From assembly GCA_963796275.1 (NCBI GenBank), contig CAWCKY010000004.1:800001-864000 (forward strand): 64,000 nucleotides of DNA, in the 5' to 3' direction. Of the stretch, positions 33,743 through 52,290 are shown in pieces. The stretch comes from an uncultured Acidobacteriota bacterium (lineage in GTDB: Bacteria > Acidobacteriota > Blastocatellia > RBC074). The notes beneath the pieces are model-generated. The model saw nothing but the letters and a program-made list of their open reading frames with translations, was not told the DNA's origin and did no database searches. Both the position numbers and the translations under genes were made by a program. The first letter of the stretch is position 1. Every line of letters starts with the position of its first letter.

Positions 33743-34735
33743 TTATTCGATGATCGGGATTATCAAGGCACAACTCTCTTCTTCAAAAACCCGCTTCAAT
33801 CTTCCGAACATCTCTTTATCCCTATAAGTTCCAATGATCGAGCCGCCCGAGCCGGCGAATTTGGCGGAAGCGCCAATCTCGCGTGCCAATTCAACCATCC
33901 TGATGTGTTTGGAATTGAGATTATAGATGCTTCGGCGCGTATCGAAATTCTTATTGATTAAACCCGCAAGTGCCTGGTAATCGCTTAAACAATCGCGCGC
34001 CTGTCGGGCCAGATCGGCTATCGTACTCATCGCATCGATCACCTTCGTTTCACCGCTATCATAGCGTTTGCGGATGTCATTGTGAAAGACCTCAGACGGC
34101 TCAGCCAGCTCGGTTTGATAGGCAATGTACAGGGGCGGCAAGATTCCGGGGTCGAGCGGTTCGTATATCCCGTGACCGTGCTGGCACATGTATTCGCTAT
34201 CGAAATCCATATAGACCAGCCCCTCATAAACCTGCGCGACGCGATCCTGCAAGCCGGCGCTGATTCCCAACTCGTCTTTTTCAACCGAAAGGATGAGGGC
34301 CGGTAGTATCTCTTTCGGTATCTCCACATCATAAAACCGGCAGAGAGCGCGCATCGTCGCAGTCACTATCGCGCTGGATCCGGCAAGTCCGACCTGCCGC
34401 GGAATGTTCGACGAGTAGCGCAATGAGAAACTGCCGGCCTTAAGCTCGATCTGCTTTCCCAGGCAGTACTCGGCAAATCGTTTGATCGCGGCTTTGACCA
34501 GTCGCAACCCTCCATAGTAACCGTTCAACCTGGTGTCGTGCAAAAAATCTTCTATGCTGTTGAATCGGCAGTGATCCTGCCGGGTCGGAATGATCTCCAG
34601 TTCGGGCCATTCATATATGACCACCTCGGCCGAGAAGTTTTTGACGATCAGACTGATGGTCTTACCGTGATAGCCGTCGGACGGATTGCCTATCAAGCCT
34701 GCCCGCGCATAGGCTCTGGTTTTAAAGATTCTCAC
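33743..34735 (-). CDS. GHMP kinase, glucuronokinase-like
   Basis: [72 protein letters not shown] all match plant glucuronokinase motifs as I recall them. Confidence 0.85.
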
Positions 34736-35609
34736 CTATTAACTCCTTGACGTGTTTGCGCAATCGTTCACCATAGACGGGATCGGTGAGCGCAAATTCG
34801 ATGAAGGTTTCAAAGTAGCTATCGAAATTGCCGATGTCGTAGCGTTTCTCGGTCGCGGGCAGCCGGACGCCGACGATTCGCTTGCCTTCCCCCAGCATGA
34901 GGCGGATCGCATCGGTCAATTGTATTTCGCCGCGATGATCAAAACCCGTGCGTTTGATCGCTCCGAAAAGGTCGGGCGCAAAAACGTACCGTCCTGCGAT
35001 CGCCCAATTGCTCGGCGCTTCATCGCGCCGGGGCTTCTCGACCAGATCGGTGATCCCGAACACTTCACCGCCGTCCGATTCTTTGACTATCCCGTACATC
35101 GAAACTTCGCGGGCCGGCACTTCTTCGACTGCAATGGCGCAAGCGGCCTCGTGCGCCTGGAATGCGTCGATCAACCTCTTGACGATAAGCGAAGGCTGAT
35201 GGCGGCCGATGATCGAGTCGCCCAGCGCAACGACGAACGGTTCCGTTCCGGTAAAGTTTTCCGCGCAGAGCACGGCATCGCCGAGTCCTCGCTGCCGCCG
35301 CTGGCGCGTGTAAAGAAAATGGAGACCCATACGCTCATACTCGAGCTCCTCTAGCAGGTCCTCTTTTCCGGTCTCGCGTAGCGTGCGGATCAGATCGGGA
35401 TCATCGTCGAAATGGTCTTCAATCGAGCTCTTCCCCCGCCCGGTGACGAAGAGGACACGCTTCATCCCGCACAGATGCAACTCTTCTACGATGTACTGGA
35501 CGATCGGCTTCTTCCCCACTGGAAGCATCTCTTTGGGCTGTGATTTGGTGGCCGGAAGCAATCGCGTGCCCAGACCGGCGACTGGGATGACGGCATTGTA
35601 AATATTCAT
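34722..35609 (-). CDS. galU: UTP--sugar-1-phosphate uridylyltransferase (GalU family)
   Basis: [48 protein letters not shown]; overlaps the kinase gene by 14 bp. Confidence 0.88.
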
Positions 35610-35884
35610 AGGAATTCGCAGTTAAATATGTTAACAATTCAGCGACTCAGCCCGAGTTACATGAAAACGGGCCGCGAACCGATGCGAAACGGGGGCGTAA
35701 GCGACCTGTGCCCTGGCACAGTCGGTTACACCCCAACGCTGCTCTACTTATATGACTTAAGGGCCTAATTCAACTGTATCAATTCATTGAAAGCCAATGG
35801 TAATATAAGGCACGCCCCGCGGCGAGTGCCAAGAAATTGAAAGATATTAACGCTAGATTTAAGCCCTGGAGAAGACCATCCGTG

Positions 35885-50383: not shown

Positions 50384-51376
50384 ATGAAAAACAAAGTCAT
50401 CGGGATTGTCATCACGATGTCGATTGCGGCATTGCTCCCGATATTCCGTGGAGTATCGGAGCAAATCGAAACCCAATCTGCGCAACAAAAAAAGCAAAAA
50501 TACGACTCAGCGACTGCTATCGGCGCAGAATTTCCCGCTTCAGTGCAAGATCCTCAGAAACCACAGGATCGAATCTTGATCAAGACAAACCTGGTCAACC
50601 TGACGGTAACCGTGAGCGACCGGCTCGGGAGGTTTGTGACCGGACTTTCGCCAGAGAATTTTGAAGTTTATGATGACAACATCAAGCAACAGATCGCTTT
50701 TTTCGCCAACGAGGATTCACCGGTGTCGATGGGAATCGTCTATGATGTCTCCGGCTCGATGAAGGATTTCAGCGCTCATTCGCTGCGAATGCTCAGACAA
50801 TTTTTCGAGAACTCACATAAAGAAGACGAATTCTTTGTCATCGCATTCAACAACCGCACACATCTCGTTCATGACTTTTCATCCTTGCCCGACGAGATCA
50901 TCAACCGTGTGGGCTTTATCAAGTCCGACGGCAGCACTGCCCTCATTGACGCGACGTATCTTGCGACCGAAAAGGTACGCCAGGGGCGACACCACAAGAA
51001 AGTCCTCCTGATTTTTTCCGACGGAGAGGAAAATAGCAGCCGGTATTCAGGAAGGGAGCTGAAAAATCTGCTCAACGAGACCGATGTCCAAATCTATGCC
51101 ATTGGAATGAGCGAGTGGAGCAGCGGCGCCCCCACGTTGAAATTCCTCTCTGAACCGACCGGCGGGCAAGCGTTCTTTCCTCTCGATTACGTATCGGCGG
51201 ATTTCGTCTACACCAGACTCGCATTGATGCTGAGAAATCAGTACGTCATCGGCTTCTATCCGAACAATACGGCATATGACGAGAAGTGGCACAAACTGCG
51301 CGTCTTGCTCAATGCGCACAAACAACTTGGTAAACTGAAGATATTCTACAAAAATGGCTACTGGTCCAAAAAATAA
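50384..51376 (+). CDS. Acidobacterial VWFA-related domain protein
   Basis: Signal peptide, LV...VTV.D..G..V.GL...F, DVSGSM, TAL.DA, SDG.EN.S, TGG, QY.IG. Confidence 0.88.
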   Translation: MKNKVIGIVITMSIAALLPIFRGVSEQIETQSAQQKKQKYDSATAIGAEFPASVQDPQKPQDRILIKTNLVNLTVTVSDRLGRFVTGLSPENFEVYDDNIKQQIAFFANEDSPVSMGIVYDVSGSMKDFSAHSLRMLRQFFENSHKEDEFFVIAFNNRTHLVHDFSSLPDEIINRVGFIKSDGSTALIDATYLATEKVRQGRHHKKVLLIFSDGEENSSRYSGRELKNLLNETDVQIYAIGMSEWSSGAPTLKFLSEPTGGQAFFPLDYVSADFVYTRLALMLRNQYVIGFYPNNTAYDEKWHKLRVLLNAHKQLGKLKIFYKNGYWSKK

Positions 51377-51447
51377 AAGCAGGTCGGGTAATTCATCGGG
51401 CGGAGAAGGTTAAAATTTCCGCCCGATCAGGAGAGGAGTAATACACT

Positions 51448-52290
51448 ATGTCCAACCCTATATTCACCGAAGGCCCCGCAGATAAAGGAGCGGATTCGAC
51501 TTTTCTCGCATCTATAAAAAATGCCGAGAGCTATCGCGACTACACGGCCGAAGCTCGCAGTTGCGTGAAAGAGCTATACCGGCTCAACCATGCAAACCAG
51601 ACGCTCGATTTCGTCCTCAAGAAGAAAGCCGAGTACGGTAAGTTCAATAAAGCGGAGATGGGTATCTGGGAGGCGATGGAGTATTTGAATACGCTGGTCG
51701 ACGACAGCGATCCCGATATCGATTTGAGTCAGGTCGATCACGCGCTGCAAACCGCCGAGGCCATACGTCAGGATGGCCATCCGCGCTGGTTCATACTGAC
51801 CGGCTTGATCCACGACCTGGGAAAGGTGCTTTGCCTCTTTGGCGAACAGCAATGGTCGGTGGTGGGCGATACATTTCCGGTCGGCTGCGCCTACAGCGAT
51901 CGCATCGTTTATTCGGAGTTGTTCAAGGCCAACCCCGATTATCTAAACCCCGCCTTTCAAACTCCGCAGGGGATTTACGAAGCTGGCTGCGGGCTCGACC
52001 ATGTGCATCTTTCCTGGGGCCACGACGAGTACCTCTATTCGGTCGTGCAGAATTACTTACCGCAGGAAGCGTTGTGGATGATCCGTTATCACTCGTGTTA
52101 CCCGGTCCATCGCGAAGGCGCATACGCGCACCTGCTCAATGAAAAGGATCGGGAGATGCTGAAATGGGTTCGGGCATTCAATCCTTATGACTTGTATTCC
52201 AAATGCGATGTGAAACCGGACCTGAGTGAGTTGAAACCATACTATGAAGAATTGATCGGAGAATTTTTTCCACCCAGGATCGCGTGGTGA
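51448..52290 (+). CDS. myo-Inositol oxygenase (MIOX, HD di-iron)
   Basis: [78 protein letters not shown]. Confidence 0.93.

What the first reader, a model, noticed from the sequence alone, without database searches (positions are those of the whole stretch)
33743..52290. Plant-like myo-inositol -> glucuronate -> UDP-glucuronate pathway apparently complete in a bacterium
Seen: a GalU-family uridylyltransferase (34722-35609) overlaps a GHMP kinase (33743-34735) whose motifs ([38 protein letters not shown]) match plant glucuronokinase rather than galactokinase or mevalonate kinase. A full MIOX lies at 51448-52290. Established: plants make UDP-GlcA via MIOX, glucuronokinase and a UDP-sugar pyrophosphorylase, and some animals carry a glucuronokinase fused to a putative uridylyltransferase. 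Bacteria normally use UDP-glucose dehydrogenase. Inference: this 'GalU' is a GlcA-1-P uridylyltransferase, and the three genes form an Ugd-independent route that could feed exopolysaccharide synthesis from soil inositol or phytate.
Basis: partly seen in the sequence, partly recalled or inferred. Interest (0 to 1): 0.75.

Follow-up and report, generated by a model that had tools for sequence, protein, structure and literature searches.

The report
Bacterial glucuronate-to-UDP-glucuronate salvage operon
A soil acidobacterium carries a kinase of the plant and fish glucuronic-acid-kinase family that overlaps a special GalU-like enzyme, a gene pair that recurs in many bacterial phyla and probably recycles free glucuronic acid into UDP-glucuronic acid, while the inositol oxygenase 16 kb away is only a loose, lineage-specific companion.

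Summary
All three genes are real at the stated coordinates. The kinase (33743-34735, minus strand) is an orthologue-level relative of glucuronokinase: 45-50% identical over its full length to animal and plant enzymes, with all the named motifs conserved. It overlaps a GalU-like uridylyltransferase by 14 nt. Together with a third unknown gene they form an operon.

The kinase/GalU-like pair is a conserved module. A GalU-like gene lies next to the kinase, on the same strand, in 61 of 80 bacterial loci from many phyla. The two are fused into one protein in three metagenomic clusters. In a 41-genome Verrucomicrobiota sample, GalU-family genes occur in exactly the 12 genomes that hold the kinase. 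All 65 kinase-linked GalU-likes replace a glucose-contact Asp with Ser, Thr or Cys.

The MIOX link is weak. MIOX lies 16.7 kb away behind 11 unrelated ORFs. It is present in only 20 of 80 kinase genomes, 10 of them among the 12 close Blastocatellia relatives. The genome also holds Ugd-like dehydrogenases, UxaC and a GH67 alpha-glucuronidase. The route is therefore a salvage branch, not a replacement for Ugd.

No biochemistry on a bacterial member turned up in my searches. This scan has already reported the same module in other genomes.

The parts
34722..35609 (-). GalU-like sugar-1-phosphate uridylyltransferase ('type A', kinase-linked subfamily); proposed GlcA-1-P (and probably Glc-1-P) uridylyltransferase; first gene of the operon
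   Evidence: PF00483 at 111.5 bits; TIGR01099 at 282.4 bits, below the 326.8 cut-off. Best solved relative is B. subtilis YngB at 222 bits. Uridine, Mg and phosphate residues are kept, but the glucose-contact Asp is Ser132. Belongs to a clade of 38 upstream-adjacent copies plus 3 fusion N-termini.
33743..34735 (-). Glucuronokinase-family GHMP kinase (proposed D-glucuronate 1-kinase). GTG start overlaps the stop of the uridylyltransferase gene by 14 nt; AAGGAG lies 9 nt upstream.
   Evidence: Close homologues are named glucuronokinase by JGI. 45-50% identity over 97-99% of its length to animal GKUP kinase domains and 46% to a plant glucuronokinase. Motifs invariant. In a 99*-supported clade with the plant and animal enzymes.
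32764..33732 (-). Third operon gene, 322 aa, function unknown (N-terminal CxxC...CxxC, basic linker). ATG lies 10 nt after the kinase stop.
   Evidence: No Pfam or NCBIfam hit. Found directly downstream of the kinase in 4 of the 80 loci, L016, L020, L021 and L023, all among the 12 closest. ESM Atlas gives only hypothetical-protein clusters and weak HTH hints.
32704..32735 (-). Terminator-like hairpin (12 pairs, then a T run) 29 nt after the stop of the third gene; likely end of the operon
   Evidence: 5 terminator-like sites found against 4.0 expected in shuffles, so the class as a whole is not enriched; this one is the longest and is correctly placed.
51448..52290 (+). myo-inositol oxygenase (MIOX). 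A possible but not obligate supplier of glucuronate; not part of the operon.
   Evidence: PF05153 at 377.6 bits, full length. Single copy in the genome. Neighbours are an SDR, a VWA protein and a DNA-ligase/exonuclease pair. Lies 6.6-24 kb from the pair in at least 4 related genomes: G000, G021, and the genomes of L022 and L025.

Best explanation
Window 32764-35609 (minus strand) is a three-gene operon whose first two genes form a bacterial salvage route from free D-glucuronate to UDP-glucuronate. The GHMP kinase phosphorylates glucuronate at C1 with ATP (inferred from orthology to the plant and fish enzymes). The translationally coupled GalU-fold enzyme then joins GlcA-1-P to UTP (inferred from gene linkage, fusions, co-inheritance and an altered sugar pocket). 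Because this GalU-like protein is the best UGPase candidate in the genome, it probably also makes UDP-glucose. That would make it a GalU-fold counterpart of the plant 'sloppy' UDP-sugar pyrophosphorylase. Free glucuronate could come from MIOX acting on inositol, from GH67 alpha-glucuronidase acting on xylan fragments, or from uptake. It is shared with catabolism through UxaC. The route runs beside UDP-glucose dehydrogenase and does not replace it. Shown here: gene anatomy, family membership, conservation of the pair, the fusions, the phyletic patterns and the residue signature. Inferred: both substrate specificities and the physiological source of glucuronate.
For: Kinase.
- It is 45-50% identical over 97-99% of its length to animal 'glucuronokinase with putative uridyl pyrophosphorylase' proteins and 46% to a plant glucuronokinase.
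- It is about as close to fish and plant (45% each) as those are to each other (49-51%). Both of those were shown to be GlcA-specific (PMC2823444, PMC3938481; abstracts and passages).
- 70 columns are invariant across 12 bacterial, animal and plant sequences, including all the named motifs.
- The eukaryotic enzymes form one clade inside a 99*-supported clade that also holds the window's clade.

Linkage.
- 61 of 80 loci from at least 8 phyla have a same-strand GalU-like gene beside the kinase. In 37 it lies upstream (gaps -10 to 210 nt) and in 24 downstream (gaps 11 to 117 nt, one of 498).
- Three protein clusters (P0127, P0128, P0143) fuse a type-A GalU-like N-terminus (42% identical to the window's) to the kinase.
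- In 151 Acidobacteriota genomes, all 6 with a close kinase have it adjacent to a sub-cut-off GalU-like scoring 277-300 bits.
- In 41 Verrucomicrobiota genomes, the kinase (12) and GalU-family hits at E<=1e-50 (12) occur in exactly the same genomes. They are adjacent in 11 of those, and none of the other 29 genomes has either.

Pocket.
- Position 132 is Ser, Thr or Cys in 65 of 65 kinase-linked copies. It is Asp in 31 of 31 canonical GalUs and in 20 of 20 sub-cut-off GalU hits of kinase-negative Acidobacteriota. This position corresponds to the glucose-contact Asp134 of YngB (PMC7961091, passages).
- Position 205 is Ala, Gly or Ser in the linked copies, against Ile or Val in the 31 canonical copies and a larger residue (I, V, T, L or F) in the 20 sub-cut-off hits.
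- Losing an acidic side chain and gaining room fits an anionic C6 carboxylate.

Operon.
- 14-nt overlap, AAGGAG before the kinase GTG, a 10-nt gap to the third gene, then a terminator-like hairpin.

Precedent.
- A bacterial two-enzyme route of an anomeric GHMP kinase plus a versatile Glc-1-P uridyltransferase makes UDP-xylose in Solitalea canadensis (PMC11267548, passages).
Against: - No bacterial member of either family has been assayed in anything I could find, so both specificities rest on inference.
- The residue signature amounts to about two evolutionary events, since the type-A and type-B clades are each monophyletic. It is not 65 independent observations.
- The same position is Val in E. 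coli and Klebsiella GalU, which are true UGPases, and the Klebsiella paper calls it non-conserved (PMC11796359, passages). A non-Asp residue therefore does not by itself mean a new substrate.
- Eukaryotic UGPases tested with GlcA-1-P gave under 10% of their Glc-1-P activity (PMC12203929, passages). That paper's E. coli GalU result for GlcA-1-P was not in the passages I saw.
- The downstream 'type B' copies pass the GalU equivalog cut-off and are the only GalU in two genomes checked. In 4 of 6 acidobacterial kinase genomes the linked copy is the only GalU hit. These proteins may simply be the housekeeping UGPase.
- 14 of the 80 loci with at least 1.1 kb of flank on both sides have no GalU-like neighbour.
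- The Verrucomicrobiota pattern is confounded by lineage and genome size: positives are 2.6-5.5 Mb, and many negatives are 1.7-3 Mb.
- The animal fusion uses a different nucleotidyltransferase subfamily (BLASTP E 0.06 against the window's protein), and its activity was never demonstrated (PMC3938481).
Confidence: 0.65

Rival explanations
1. The full three-gene reading of the first reader: in this lineage MIOX is the main supplier, so that myo-inositol goes to glucuronate, then GlcA-1-P, then UDP-GlcA as one pathway feeding polysaccharide synthesis from soil inositol or phytate. This is a special case of the best explanation, not an alternative mechanism.
For: MIOX is intact and single-copy. 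An inositol-1-phosphate synthase is present. 10 of the 12 closest kinase-bearing relatives (L018-L027) also have MIOX, as does the family member G021. Among 10 other genomes of the same class without the kinase, only 1 has MIOX. MIOX lies 6.6-24 kb from the pair on the same contig in G000, G021, and the genomes of L022 and L025.
Against: MIOX is on the other strand, 16.7 kb away, behind 11 unrelated ORFs. Outside the Blastocatellia group only 10 of 68 kinase genomes have MIOX. In the phylum sample 8 of 10 MIOX genomes lack the kinase and 7 of 9 kinase genomes lack MIOX. The co-occurrence inside one family may be a single inheritance event. UxaC offers a catabolic sink and GH67 another source. 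MIOX is within 10 kb of the kinase in only 1 of 80 loci.
Confidence: 0.25
2. The GalU-like protein is just the cell's UDP-glucose pyrophosphorylase. It is co-transcribed with the kinase for regulatory or historical reasons, and GlcA-1-P (or whatever the kinase makes) is handled by another enzyme or has another fate.
For: It is the best TIGR01099 hit in the genome (282 bits; the only other is a divergent 191-bit paralogue). It is about 50% identical to YngB, a proven UGPase, with the uridine, Mg and phosphate residues intact. Type-B copies pass the GalU cut-off and are the only GalU in two genomes. The varied position is not essential for UGPase activity in Klebsiella (PMC11796359).
Against: It does not explain the fusions to the kinase. 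It does not explain why GalU-family genes are found only in kinase-bearing Verrucomicrobiota (12 of 12 against 0 of 29). It does not explain why a separate canonical GalU coexists with the linked copy in G003. No other use of GlcA-1-P is known (statement in PMC3938481, passage). No USP-type (PF01704) enzyme was found in this genome (94.7% complete).
Confidence: 0.15
3. The bacterial kinase phosphorylates a different sugar at C1 (glucose, galactose, xylose, galacturonate), and the pair is a salvage route for another UDP-sugar, like the Solitalea GalK/uridyltransferase route to UDP-xylose.
For: No bacterial member has been assayed. GHMP anomeric kinases change specificity readily. A bacterial promiscuous pair is on record (PMC11267548). 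More distant relatives (36-40% identity) sit beside a sodium:solute symporter and a xylose-isomerase-like TIM-barrel gene, a different context.
Against: Both characterised members, plant and fish, which are 49-51% identical to each other, are strictly GlcA-specific (PMC2823444, PMC3938481). The window's protein is 45% identical to each and shares all the family motifs. Loss of the acidic pocket residue in the partner fits an acidic sugar.
Confidence: 0.12

Closest known systems
Plant myo-inositol oxygenation / salvage route to UDP-GlcA: MIOX, glucuronokinase (Arabidopsis At3g01640, EC 2.7.1.43), UDP-sugar pyrophosphorylase USP (PMC2823444; PMC6329318)
   Same: Same kinase family (46% identity to a plant member, shared motifs). 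Same two-step logic of C1 kinase then uridylyltransferase. A MIOX gene exists in the genome.
   Different: The second enzyme is a roughly 300-aa GalU-fold protein, not the roughly 600-aa UDPGP-family USP. No PF01704 hit was found in the genome. The kinase and transferase are one operon. MIOX is not co-inherited with them across bacteria.
Zebrafish/Xenopus GKUP, a glucuronokinase fused to a putative UDP-GlcA pyrophosphorylase (PMC3938481)
   Same: Kinase domain 45-50% identical. A nucleotidyltransferase is physically coupled to the kinase, as in the bacterial fusions P0127, P0128 and P0143.
   Different: The animal N-terminal domain belongs to another NTP-transferase subfamily (BLASTP E 0.06 against the window's protein). 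Its pyrophosphorylase activity could not be shown in vitro (PMC3938481 passages). The bacterial fusions use the GalU-like type A domain.
Bacterial GalU / GtaB / YngB UTP-glucose-1-phosphate uridylyltransferases (TIGR01099; PDB 7o2n, 3juk, 2e3d)
   Same: Same fold and length. The uridine-binding, Mg-binding and phosphate-binding residues are conserved.
   Different: Scores below the equivalog cut-off (282.4 against 326.8). Forms a separate clade together with the fusion proteins. Has Ser in place of the glucose-contact Asp and Ala in place of Ile/Val at position 205. Always found beside the glucuronokinase in the samples examined.
Solitalea canadensis GalK + glucose-1-phosphate uridyltransferase UDP-xylose salvage (PMC11267548, passages only)
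   Same: A bacterial two-enzyme salvage: an anomeric GHMP kinase followed by a versatile Glc-1-P uridyltransferase.
   Different: A different kinase subfamily (galactokinase) and a different sugar. I did not compare sequences, because none was available from a tool.

Membership tests
Glucuronokinase (EC 2.7.1.43, GHMP superfamily) | GHMP kinase N-terminal domain with the ATP-binding motif | tested here: met
   PF00288 at 55.4 bits, residues 79-172. [12 protein letters not shown] is conserved.
Glucuronokinase (EC 2.7.1.43, GHMP superfamily) | Full-length similarity to, and common clade with, the characterised plant and fish enzymes | tested here: met
   45-50% identity over 97-99% of length to animal proteins and 46% to a plant protein. 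Identity matrix. A 99*-supported clade contains both (quick tree, SH-aLRT support only). Arabidopsis and D. rerio proteins themselves were not available; a plant (Ambrosia) and a Danio congener stood in.
Glucuronokinase (EC 2.7.1.43, GHMP superfamily) | Family motifs GNPSD, GYxGG, IPRQxGLxGSSAI, AGLQDRVxQxY | tested here: met
   Invariant columns in alignment A1 of 12 bacterial, animal and plant sequences. The Lilium peptide in PMC2823444 matches.
Glucuronokinase (EC 2.7.1.43, GHMP superfamily) | ATP-dependent phosphorylation of D-glucuronate at C1, specific for GlcA | not testable with these tools
   No solved glucuronokinase structure turned up by sequence (best PDB hit is an HddA-like kinase, E 3e-12). 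No bacterial assay was found in print.
GalU (TIGR01099 equivalog) | Score at or above the curated cut-off of 326.8 bits | tested here: not met
   282.4 bits. All 6 kinase-adjacent acidobacterial copies score 277-300 bits.
GalU (TIGR01099 equivalog) | Nucleotide, Mg and phosphate-binding residues (GxGTR loop, K26/E27, Q103, G108, D131, E191-K192) | tested here: met
   Alignment to YngB 7o2n, residue roles from PMC7961091, column counts.
GalU (TIGR01099 equivalog) | Glucose-contact Asp after the Mg-binding Asp (YngB D134, P. aeruginosa D131) | tested here: not met
   Ser132 here. Ser, Thr or Cys in 65 of 65 kinase-linked copies, against Asp in 51 of 51 GalU hits examined from kinase-negative Acidobacteriota plus the canonical copy in G003. 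Caveat: Val in E. coli and Klebsiella GalU.
MIOX (PF05153) | Full-length match to the family profile above the gathering score | tested here: met
   377.6 bits against a cut-off of 25, profile positions 3-249 of 249.
Plant-type MIOX-GlcAK-USP pathway as a unit | UDPGP-family UDP-sugar pyrophosphorylase (PF01704) | tested here: not met
   No hit in the genome. The genome is 94.7% complete and the control genomes also gave no hit, so this is a weak negative.
Plant-type MIOX-GlcAK-USP pathway as a unit | MIOX inherited together with the kinase | tested here: inconclusive
   20 of 80 kinase genomes have MIOX: 10 of the 12 close relatives and 10 of 68 others. In 151 Acidobacteriota, 2 genomes hold both, against 10 with MIOX and 9 with the kinase.
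Animal GKUP fusion | N-terminal UP-type nucleotidyltransferase domain | tested here: not met
   P0002 against a Danio GKUP: only 17/52 identities around the G-loop, E 0.06. tblastn of the animal N-termini against the 80 loci gave only 3 weak hits.

The most novel reading that the evidence does not exclude
The kinase-linked GalU clades (Ser/Thr/Cys at position 132, a small residue at 205) are the missing dedicated or dual-specificity glucuronate-1-phosphate uridylyltransferases (EC 2.7.7.44) built on the GalU fold. What databases call 'GalU' in whole lineages exists to serve the glucuronokinase rather than UDP-glucose supply. In the 41 Verrucomicrobiota sampled, for example, GalU occurs only where the kinase does. 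Bacteria would then be the source of the eukaryotic glucuronokinase, and would already have solved the second step that could never be shown for the fish fusion protein.
Probability: 0.4. Interest if true: 0.7.

Novelty: new variant of a known kind. Interest (0 to 1): 0.5.

Why it matters
UDP-glucuronate feeds capsules, exopolysaccharides, xylose and arabinose-derived sugars, and lipid A modification. Textbooks give bacteria one route to it, through Ugd.

A kinase plus GalU-fold salvage route present in hundreds of genomes of polymer-degrading phyla would add a second, NAD-independent entry point. Those phyla include Acidobacteriota, Planctomycetota, Verrucomicrobiota, Chloroflexota and Bacteroidota. 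The route would link glucuronate scavenged from plant xylan, or made from inositol, directly to envelope synthesis.

It would also correct a widespread 'GalU' or 'GHMP kinase' annotation. It would give EC 2.7.7.44 a compact bacterial enzyme, and it would provide a two-enzyme biocatalyst for UDP-GlcA.

The specific claim of this finding, a complete plant-like inositol pathway, is the weaker part.

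Tried and rejected
- **Animal UP domain as homologue of the window's GalU-like protein:** rejected (E 0.06).
- **A single MIOX-kinase-GalU cluster:** rejected. MIOX is within 10 kb of the kinase in 1 of 80 loci.
- **'Ugd-independent':** rejected as worded. Three nucleotide-sugar dehydrogenases are present, with best named matches TuaD-like 483 bits, AglM-like 331 bits and UDP-ManNAc-dehydrogenase-like 279 bits. 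None reaches an equivalog cut-off, so 'Ugd-like' is the most that can be said.
- **Neighbours of the 19 kinase loci without a GalU-like gene:** unrelated families, with no alternative nucleotidyltransferase. 5 of the 19 have a truncated flank.
- **Other multidomain proteins among the GalU representatives** (glycerate kinase, epimerase, cupin/GPI fusions): unrelated to this question. P0126 (590 aa) has no NTP-transferase domain and looks like an over-extended gene call.
- **Distant kinase relatives in one acidobacterial family** (36-40% identity): they sit with a symporter and a TIM-barrel gene and were used only as the outgroup.
- **The search of protein representatives with the GalU-like protein:** gave 19,877 hits without names or context and added little.
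- **Literature:** the search was badly framed and matched taxon names only, so it was uninformative. Thoden & Holden 2007 (DOI recalled) is not held, so which glucose hydroxyl the Asp contacts could not be read.
- **Expression:** no RNA holder was listed for window 32700-35900, and read laying was therefore not used.
- **GH115:** no hit in the genome.
- **Third operon gene:** no family found.
- **Not attempted:** Complex prediction, structure prediction and fold search. Models give no ligand coordinates here, and the report does not claim that the two proteins bind.
- **Not seen:** supplements of the papers cited were not opened. Figure S2 of PMC11796359 (conservation of the Asp/Val position across bacterial UGPs) could bear on the signature claim.

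Full report
**What is in the window**

- Window 34722-35609 (minus strand, 295 aa) is an NTP_transferase protein. Its best named match is GalU (TIGR01099) at 282.4 bits, below the curated cut-off of 326.8.
- Window 33743-34735 (minus strand, 330 aa) is a GHMP kinase that passes no NCBIfam equivalog. Its best match is HddA at 51 bits against a cut-off of 600.
- Window 51448-52290 (plus strand, 280 aa) is a full-length MIOX (PF05153, 377.6 bits). It is the only MIOX hit in the 9.46-Mb, 7-contig genome that holds the window.

The first two genes overlap by 14 nt. The kinase's GTG start is preceded by AAGGAG, and that start matches the M-R-I-F-K-T start of its homologues.

A third ORF (32764-33732, 322 aa, no family) starts 10 nt after the kinase stop. 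A 12-pair hairpin with a T run at 32735-32704 follows it. I read this as a three-gene operon.

MIOX is not part of it. It lies on the other strand, 16.7 kb from the kinase. In between are 11 ORFs: two without a family, enolase, an AIM24-family protein, a Bax1-I-family protein, Leu/Phe-tRNA protein transferase, an M61 peptidase, a PIG-L-domain protein, an E1 dehydrogenase, an SDR and a VWA protein.

**The kinase**

A search of 5.8 billion proteins returned the capped maximum of 8000 relatives. The 120 listed are 74-96% identical. JGI names many of them 'glucuronokinase', while NCBI calls them 'GHMP kinase' or 'mevalonate kinase'; the taxa named are Blastocatellia and Acidobacteriota.

Among longer proteins, the window's kinase is 45-50% identical over 97-99% of its length to the C-terminal domain of animal 'glucuronokinase with putative uridyl pyrophosphorylase' proteins. 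It is 46% identical to a plant glucuronokinase.

The window's protein is 45% identical to a Danio protein and 45% to the plant protein. Those two are 49% identical to each other. Both the Arabidopsis and the zebrafish enzymes are reported as specific for D-glucuronate (PMC2823444 and PMC3938481; I read the abstracts and the passages returned).

I built a quick maximum-likelihood tree of 99 kinases, rooted on distant acidobacterial relatives. The plant and animal proteins form one clade (100*), nested inside a 99*-supported clade of 68 rows that also holds the window's acidobacterial clade. Support is SH-aLRT only, and the relations among the subclades are unresolved.

No solved structure of the family turned up by sequence. 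I conclude that the protein belongs to the glucuronokinase family. Its substrate is inferred, not shown.

The family is not plant-specific. The 2009 paper already listed three bacteria.

**The pair is a conserved module**

I examined the 80 best loci. They come from Acidobacteriota, Planctomycetota, Verrucomicrobiota, Chloroflexota, Bacteroidota, Nitrospirota, Hydrogenedentota, Kiritimatiellota and others.

| Arrangement | Loci (of 80) | Identity to window's GalU-like | Gap to kinase |
|---|---|---|---|
| GalU-like upstream, same strand ('type A', as in the window) | 37 | 55-88% | -10 to 210 nt |
| GalU-like downstream, same strand ('type B') | 24 | 38-45% | 11 to 117 nt, one of 498 |
| No GalU-like neighbour | 19 | - | - |

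Of the 19 loci without a neighbour, 5 have a truncated flank. The neighbours in the rest belong to unrelated families.

Three protein clusters (P0127, P0128, P0143; 603-633 aa) fuse a type-A domain to the kinase. The domain in P0128 is 42% identical to the window's protein.

The animal fusion uses a different nucleotidyltransferase subfamily, so coupling of a nucleotidyltransferase to this kinase arose more than once.

**Is the partner a special GalU?**

In a tree of 98 GalU-family proteins, type A plus the fusion domains form one clade. It is separate from E. coli GalU, from type B (one clade, 99*), and from 31 canonical acidobacterial GalUs.

Residue roles come from the YngB structure paper (PMC7961091, passages) and the YngB alignment. 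The window's protein keeps the uridine, Mg and phosphate ligands. It has Ser132 where YngB has the glucose-contact Asp134.

| Set of GalU-family proteins | n | Position 132 | Position 205 |
|---|---|---|---|
| Kinase-linked (38 type A, 24 type B, 3 fused) | 65 | Ser, Thr or Cys in all | Ala, Gly or Ser |
| Canonical GalUs (30 from kinase-negative Acidobacteriota, plus the second copy in G003) | 31 | Asp in all | Ile or Val |
| Sub-cut-off GalU hits of kinase-negative Acidobacteriota | 20 | Asp in all | I, V, T, L or F |

The 30 + 20 genomes examined are 50 of the 114 kinase-negative genomes that had a GalU hit.

Two of those loci (L125, L132), the MIOX hit of G053, and G028's place in the GalU tally come from genomes flagged as unpublished.

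The signature must be discounted in two ways:
- Type A and type B are each one clade, so it reflects about two events.
- E. coli and Klebsiella GalU have Val at this position and are true UGPases. The Klebsiella paper calls the position non-conserved (PMC11796359, passages).

**Phyletic patterns**

In 151 Acidobacteriota genomes, a close kinase (E<=1e-111) occurs in 6. In all 6 it is adjacent to a GalU-like scoring 277-300 bits. In 4 of those 6 it is the only GalU hit at E<=1e-50. One further acidobacterial genome (G003) has both a linked copy (288 bits) and a canonical GalU (383.8 bits).

In two type-B genomes, the linked copy is the only GalU and passes the cut-off.

In 41 Verrucomicrobiota genomes, the kinase is in 12. 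GalU-family hits at E<=1e-50 are in exactly those 12 and in none of the other 29. The two genes are adjacent in 11 of the 12. Ten of the 12 have the Thr plus Ala-205 signature, including the one non-adjacent copy. Lineage and genome size confound this result, and kinship was not given for these genomes.

Taken together, these patterns say that the GalU-like enzyme works with the kinase. In many genomes it must also be the only UGPase, so a dual-specificity enzyme is the most economical reading.

**MIOX and the rest of the genome**

In the same 151 Acidobacteriota genomes, MIOX is in 10 and the kinase in 9, 3 of which are distant copies. Only G000 and G021, which belong to the same family, hold both.

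Across the genomes behind the 80 loci, MIOX is in 20: 15 of 50 and 5 of 30. That is 10 of the 12 closest (Blastocatellia-like) relatives and 10 of 68 others.

In four related genomes, MIOX lies 6.6-24 kb from the pair on the same contig. That is as expected for conserved synteny among kin.

The window's genome also encodes:
- three nucleotide-sugar dehydrogenases, two of them Ugd-like;
- uronate isomerase UxaC;
- a GH67 alpha-glucuronidase;
- an inositol-1-phosphate synthase.

It gave no hit for a USP-type pyrophosphorylase.

- MIOX is not an obligate partner of the kinase.
- Glucuronate has other sources and another sink.
- Ugd is not replaced.

**Novelty and literature**

I ran three relevant searches:
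- 'glucuronokinase' (71 papers, 30 listed);
- GlcA-1-P terms (60 papers, 30 listed);
- GlcAK and glucuronate-kinase terms (45 papers, 40 listed).

Judged from titles and abstract starts only, they returned plant, animal and biocatalysis papers. None reports an assay of a bacterial glucuronokinase or of a GalU-type GlcA-1-P uridylyltransferase. The library lacks most subscription journals.

A related bacterial precedent is the Solitalea GalK/uridyltransferase route to UDP-xylose (PMC11267548, passages).

This scan has already reported the same two-gene module on other genomes, with the same reading. My tests were run independently before I saw those notes.

What this window adds:
- a test of the MIOX claim, which came out mostly negative;
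- the Verrucomicrobiota co-occurrence;
- the residue signature with its controls.

**Verdict**

The best explanation is a glucuronate-to-UDP-glucuronate salvage operon with a GalU-fold second enzyme (confidence 0.65). It is a new variant of a route known in plants and fish, and it is untested in bacteria.

Noticed in passing
window 32764-33732 (-): A 322-aa ORF with an N-terminal CxxC...CxxC and a basic linker is translationally close-coupled to the kinase (10-nt gap). It is conserved directly downstream of the kinase in 4 close relatives (L016, L020, L021, L023). It has no Pfam or NCBIfam family, and the ESM Atlas gives only weak HTH-like hints. It could be a regulator of the operon.
   Followed up: partly
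L135 (G007:C1:1985000-1995000) and L136 (G059:C7:206000-216000): One acidobacterial family carries a more distant relative of the kinase (36-40% identity). It sits directly after a sodium:solute symporter and, in L135, a xylose-isomerase-like TIM-barrel gene, with no GalU-family hit at E<=1e-50 in the genome. L030 (Planctomycetota) also has such a TIM-barrel gene just upstream of its kinase. This may be a different sugar-acid pathway.
   Followed up: partly
window 52397-55114 (+): A ligase-associated DNA-damage-response exonuclease (TIGR04122, 487 bits) and an ATP-dependent DNA ligase (NF006701, 736 bits) lie directly after MIOX.
   Followed up: no
G000:C1:755254-756015 (-) (L002): This is the second GalU-like paralogue of the genome (191 bits, 32% identical to the window's copy). 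It keeps the Asp-Asp motif but has lost other conserved residues (Lys22 to Leu, Gln230 to Trp). An orthologue exists in the family member G021. Its substrate is unknown.
   Followed up: partly
P0125 (Ambrosia artemisiifolia, 624 aa): The only plant protein retrieved is a gene model with two tandem glucuronokinase domains. It could be a real duplication-fusion or two merged genes.
   Followed up: no
P0325, P0340, P0402, P0353: GalU-like domains also occur fused to glycerate kinase, to an NAD-dependent epimerase/dehydratase, to a cupin-type glucose-6-phosphate isomerase, and to a cupin domain.
   Followed up: no
window 47083-49320 (+): A single 745-aa ORF joins E1 dehydrogenase alpha-like and beta-like (transketolase pyrimidine-binding and C-terminal) domains. 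It overlaps the start of an SDR gene.
   Followed up: no
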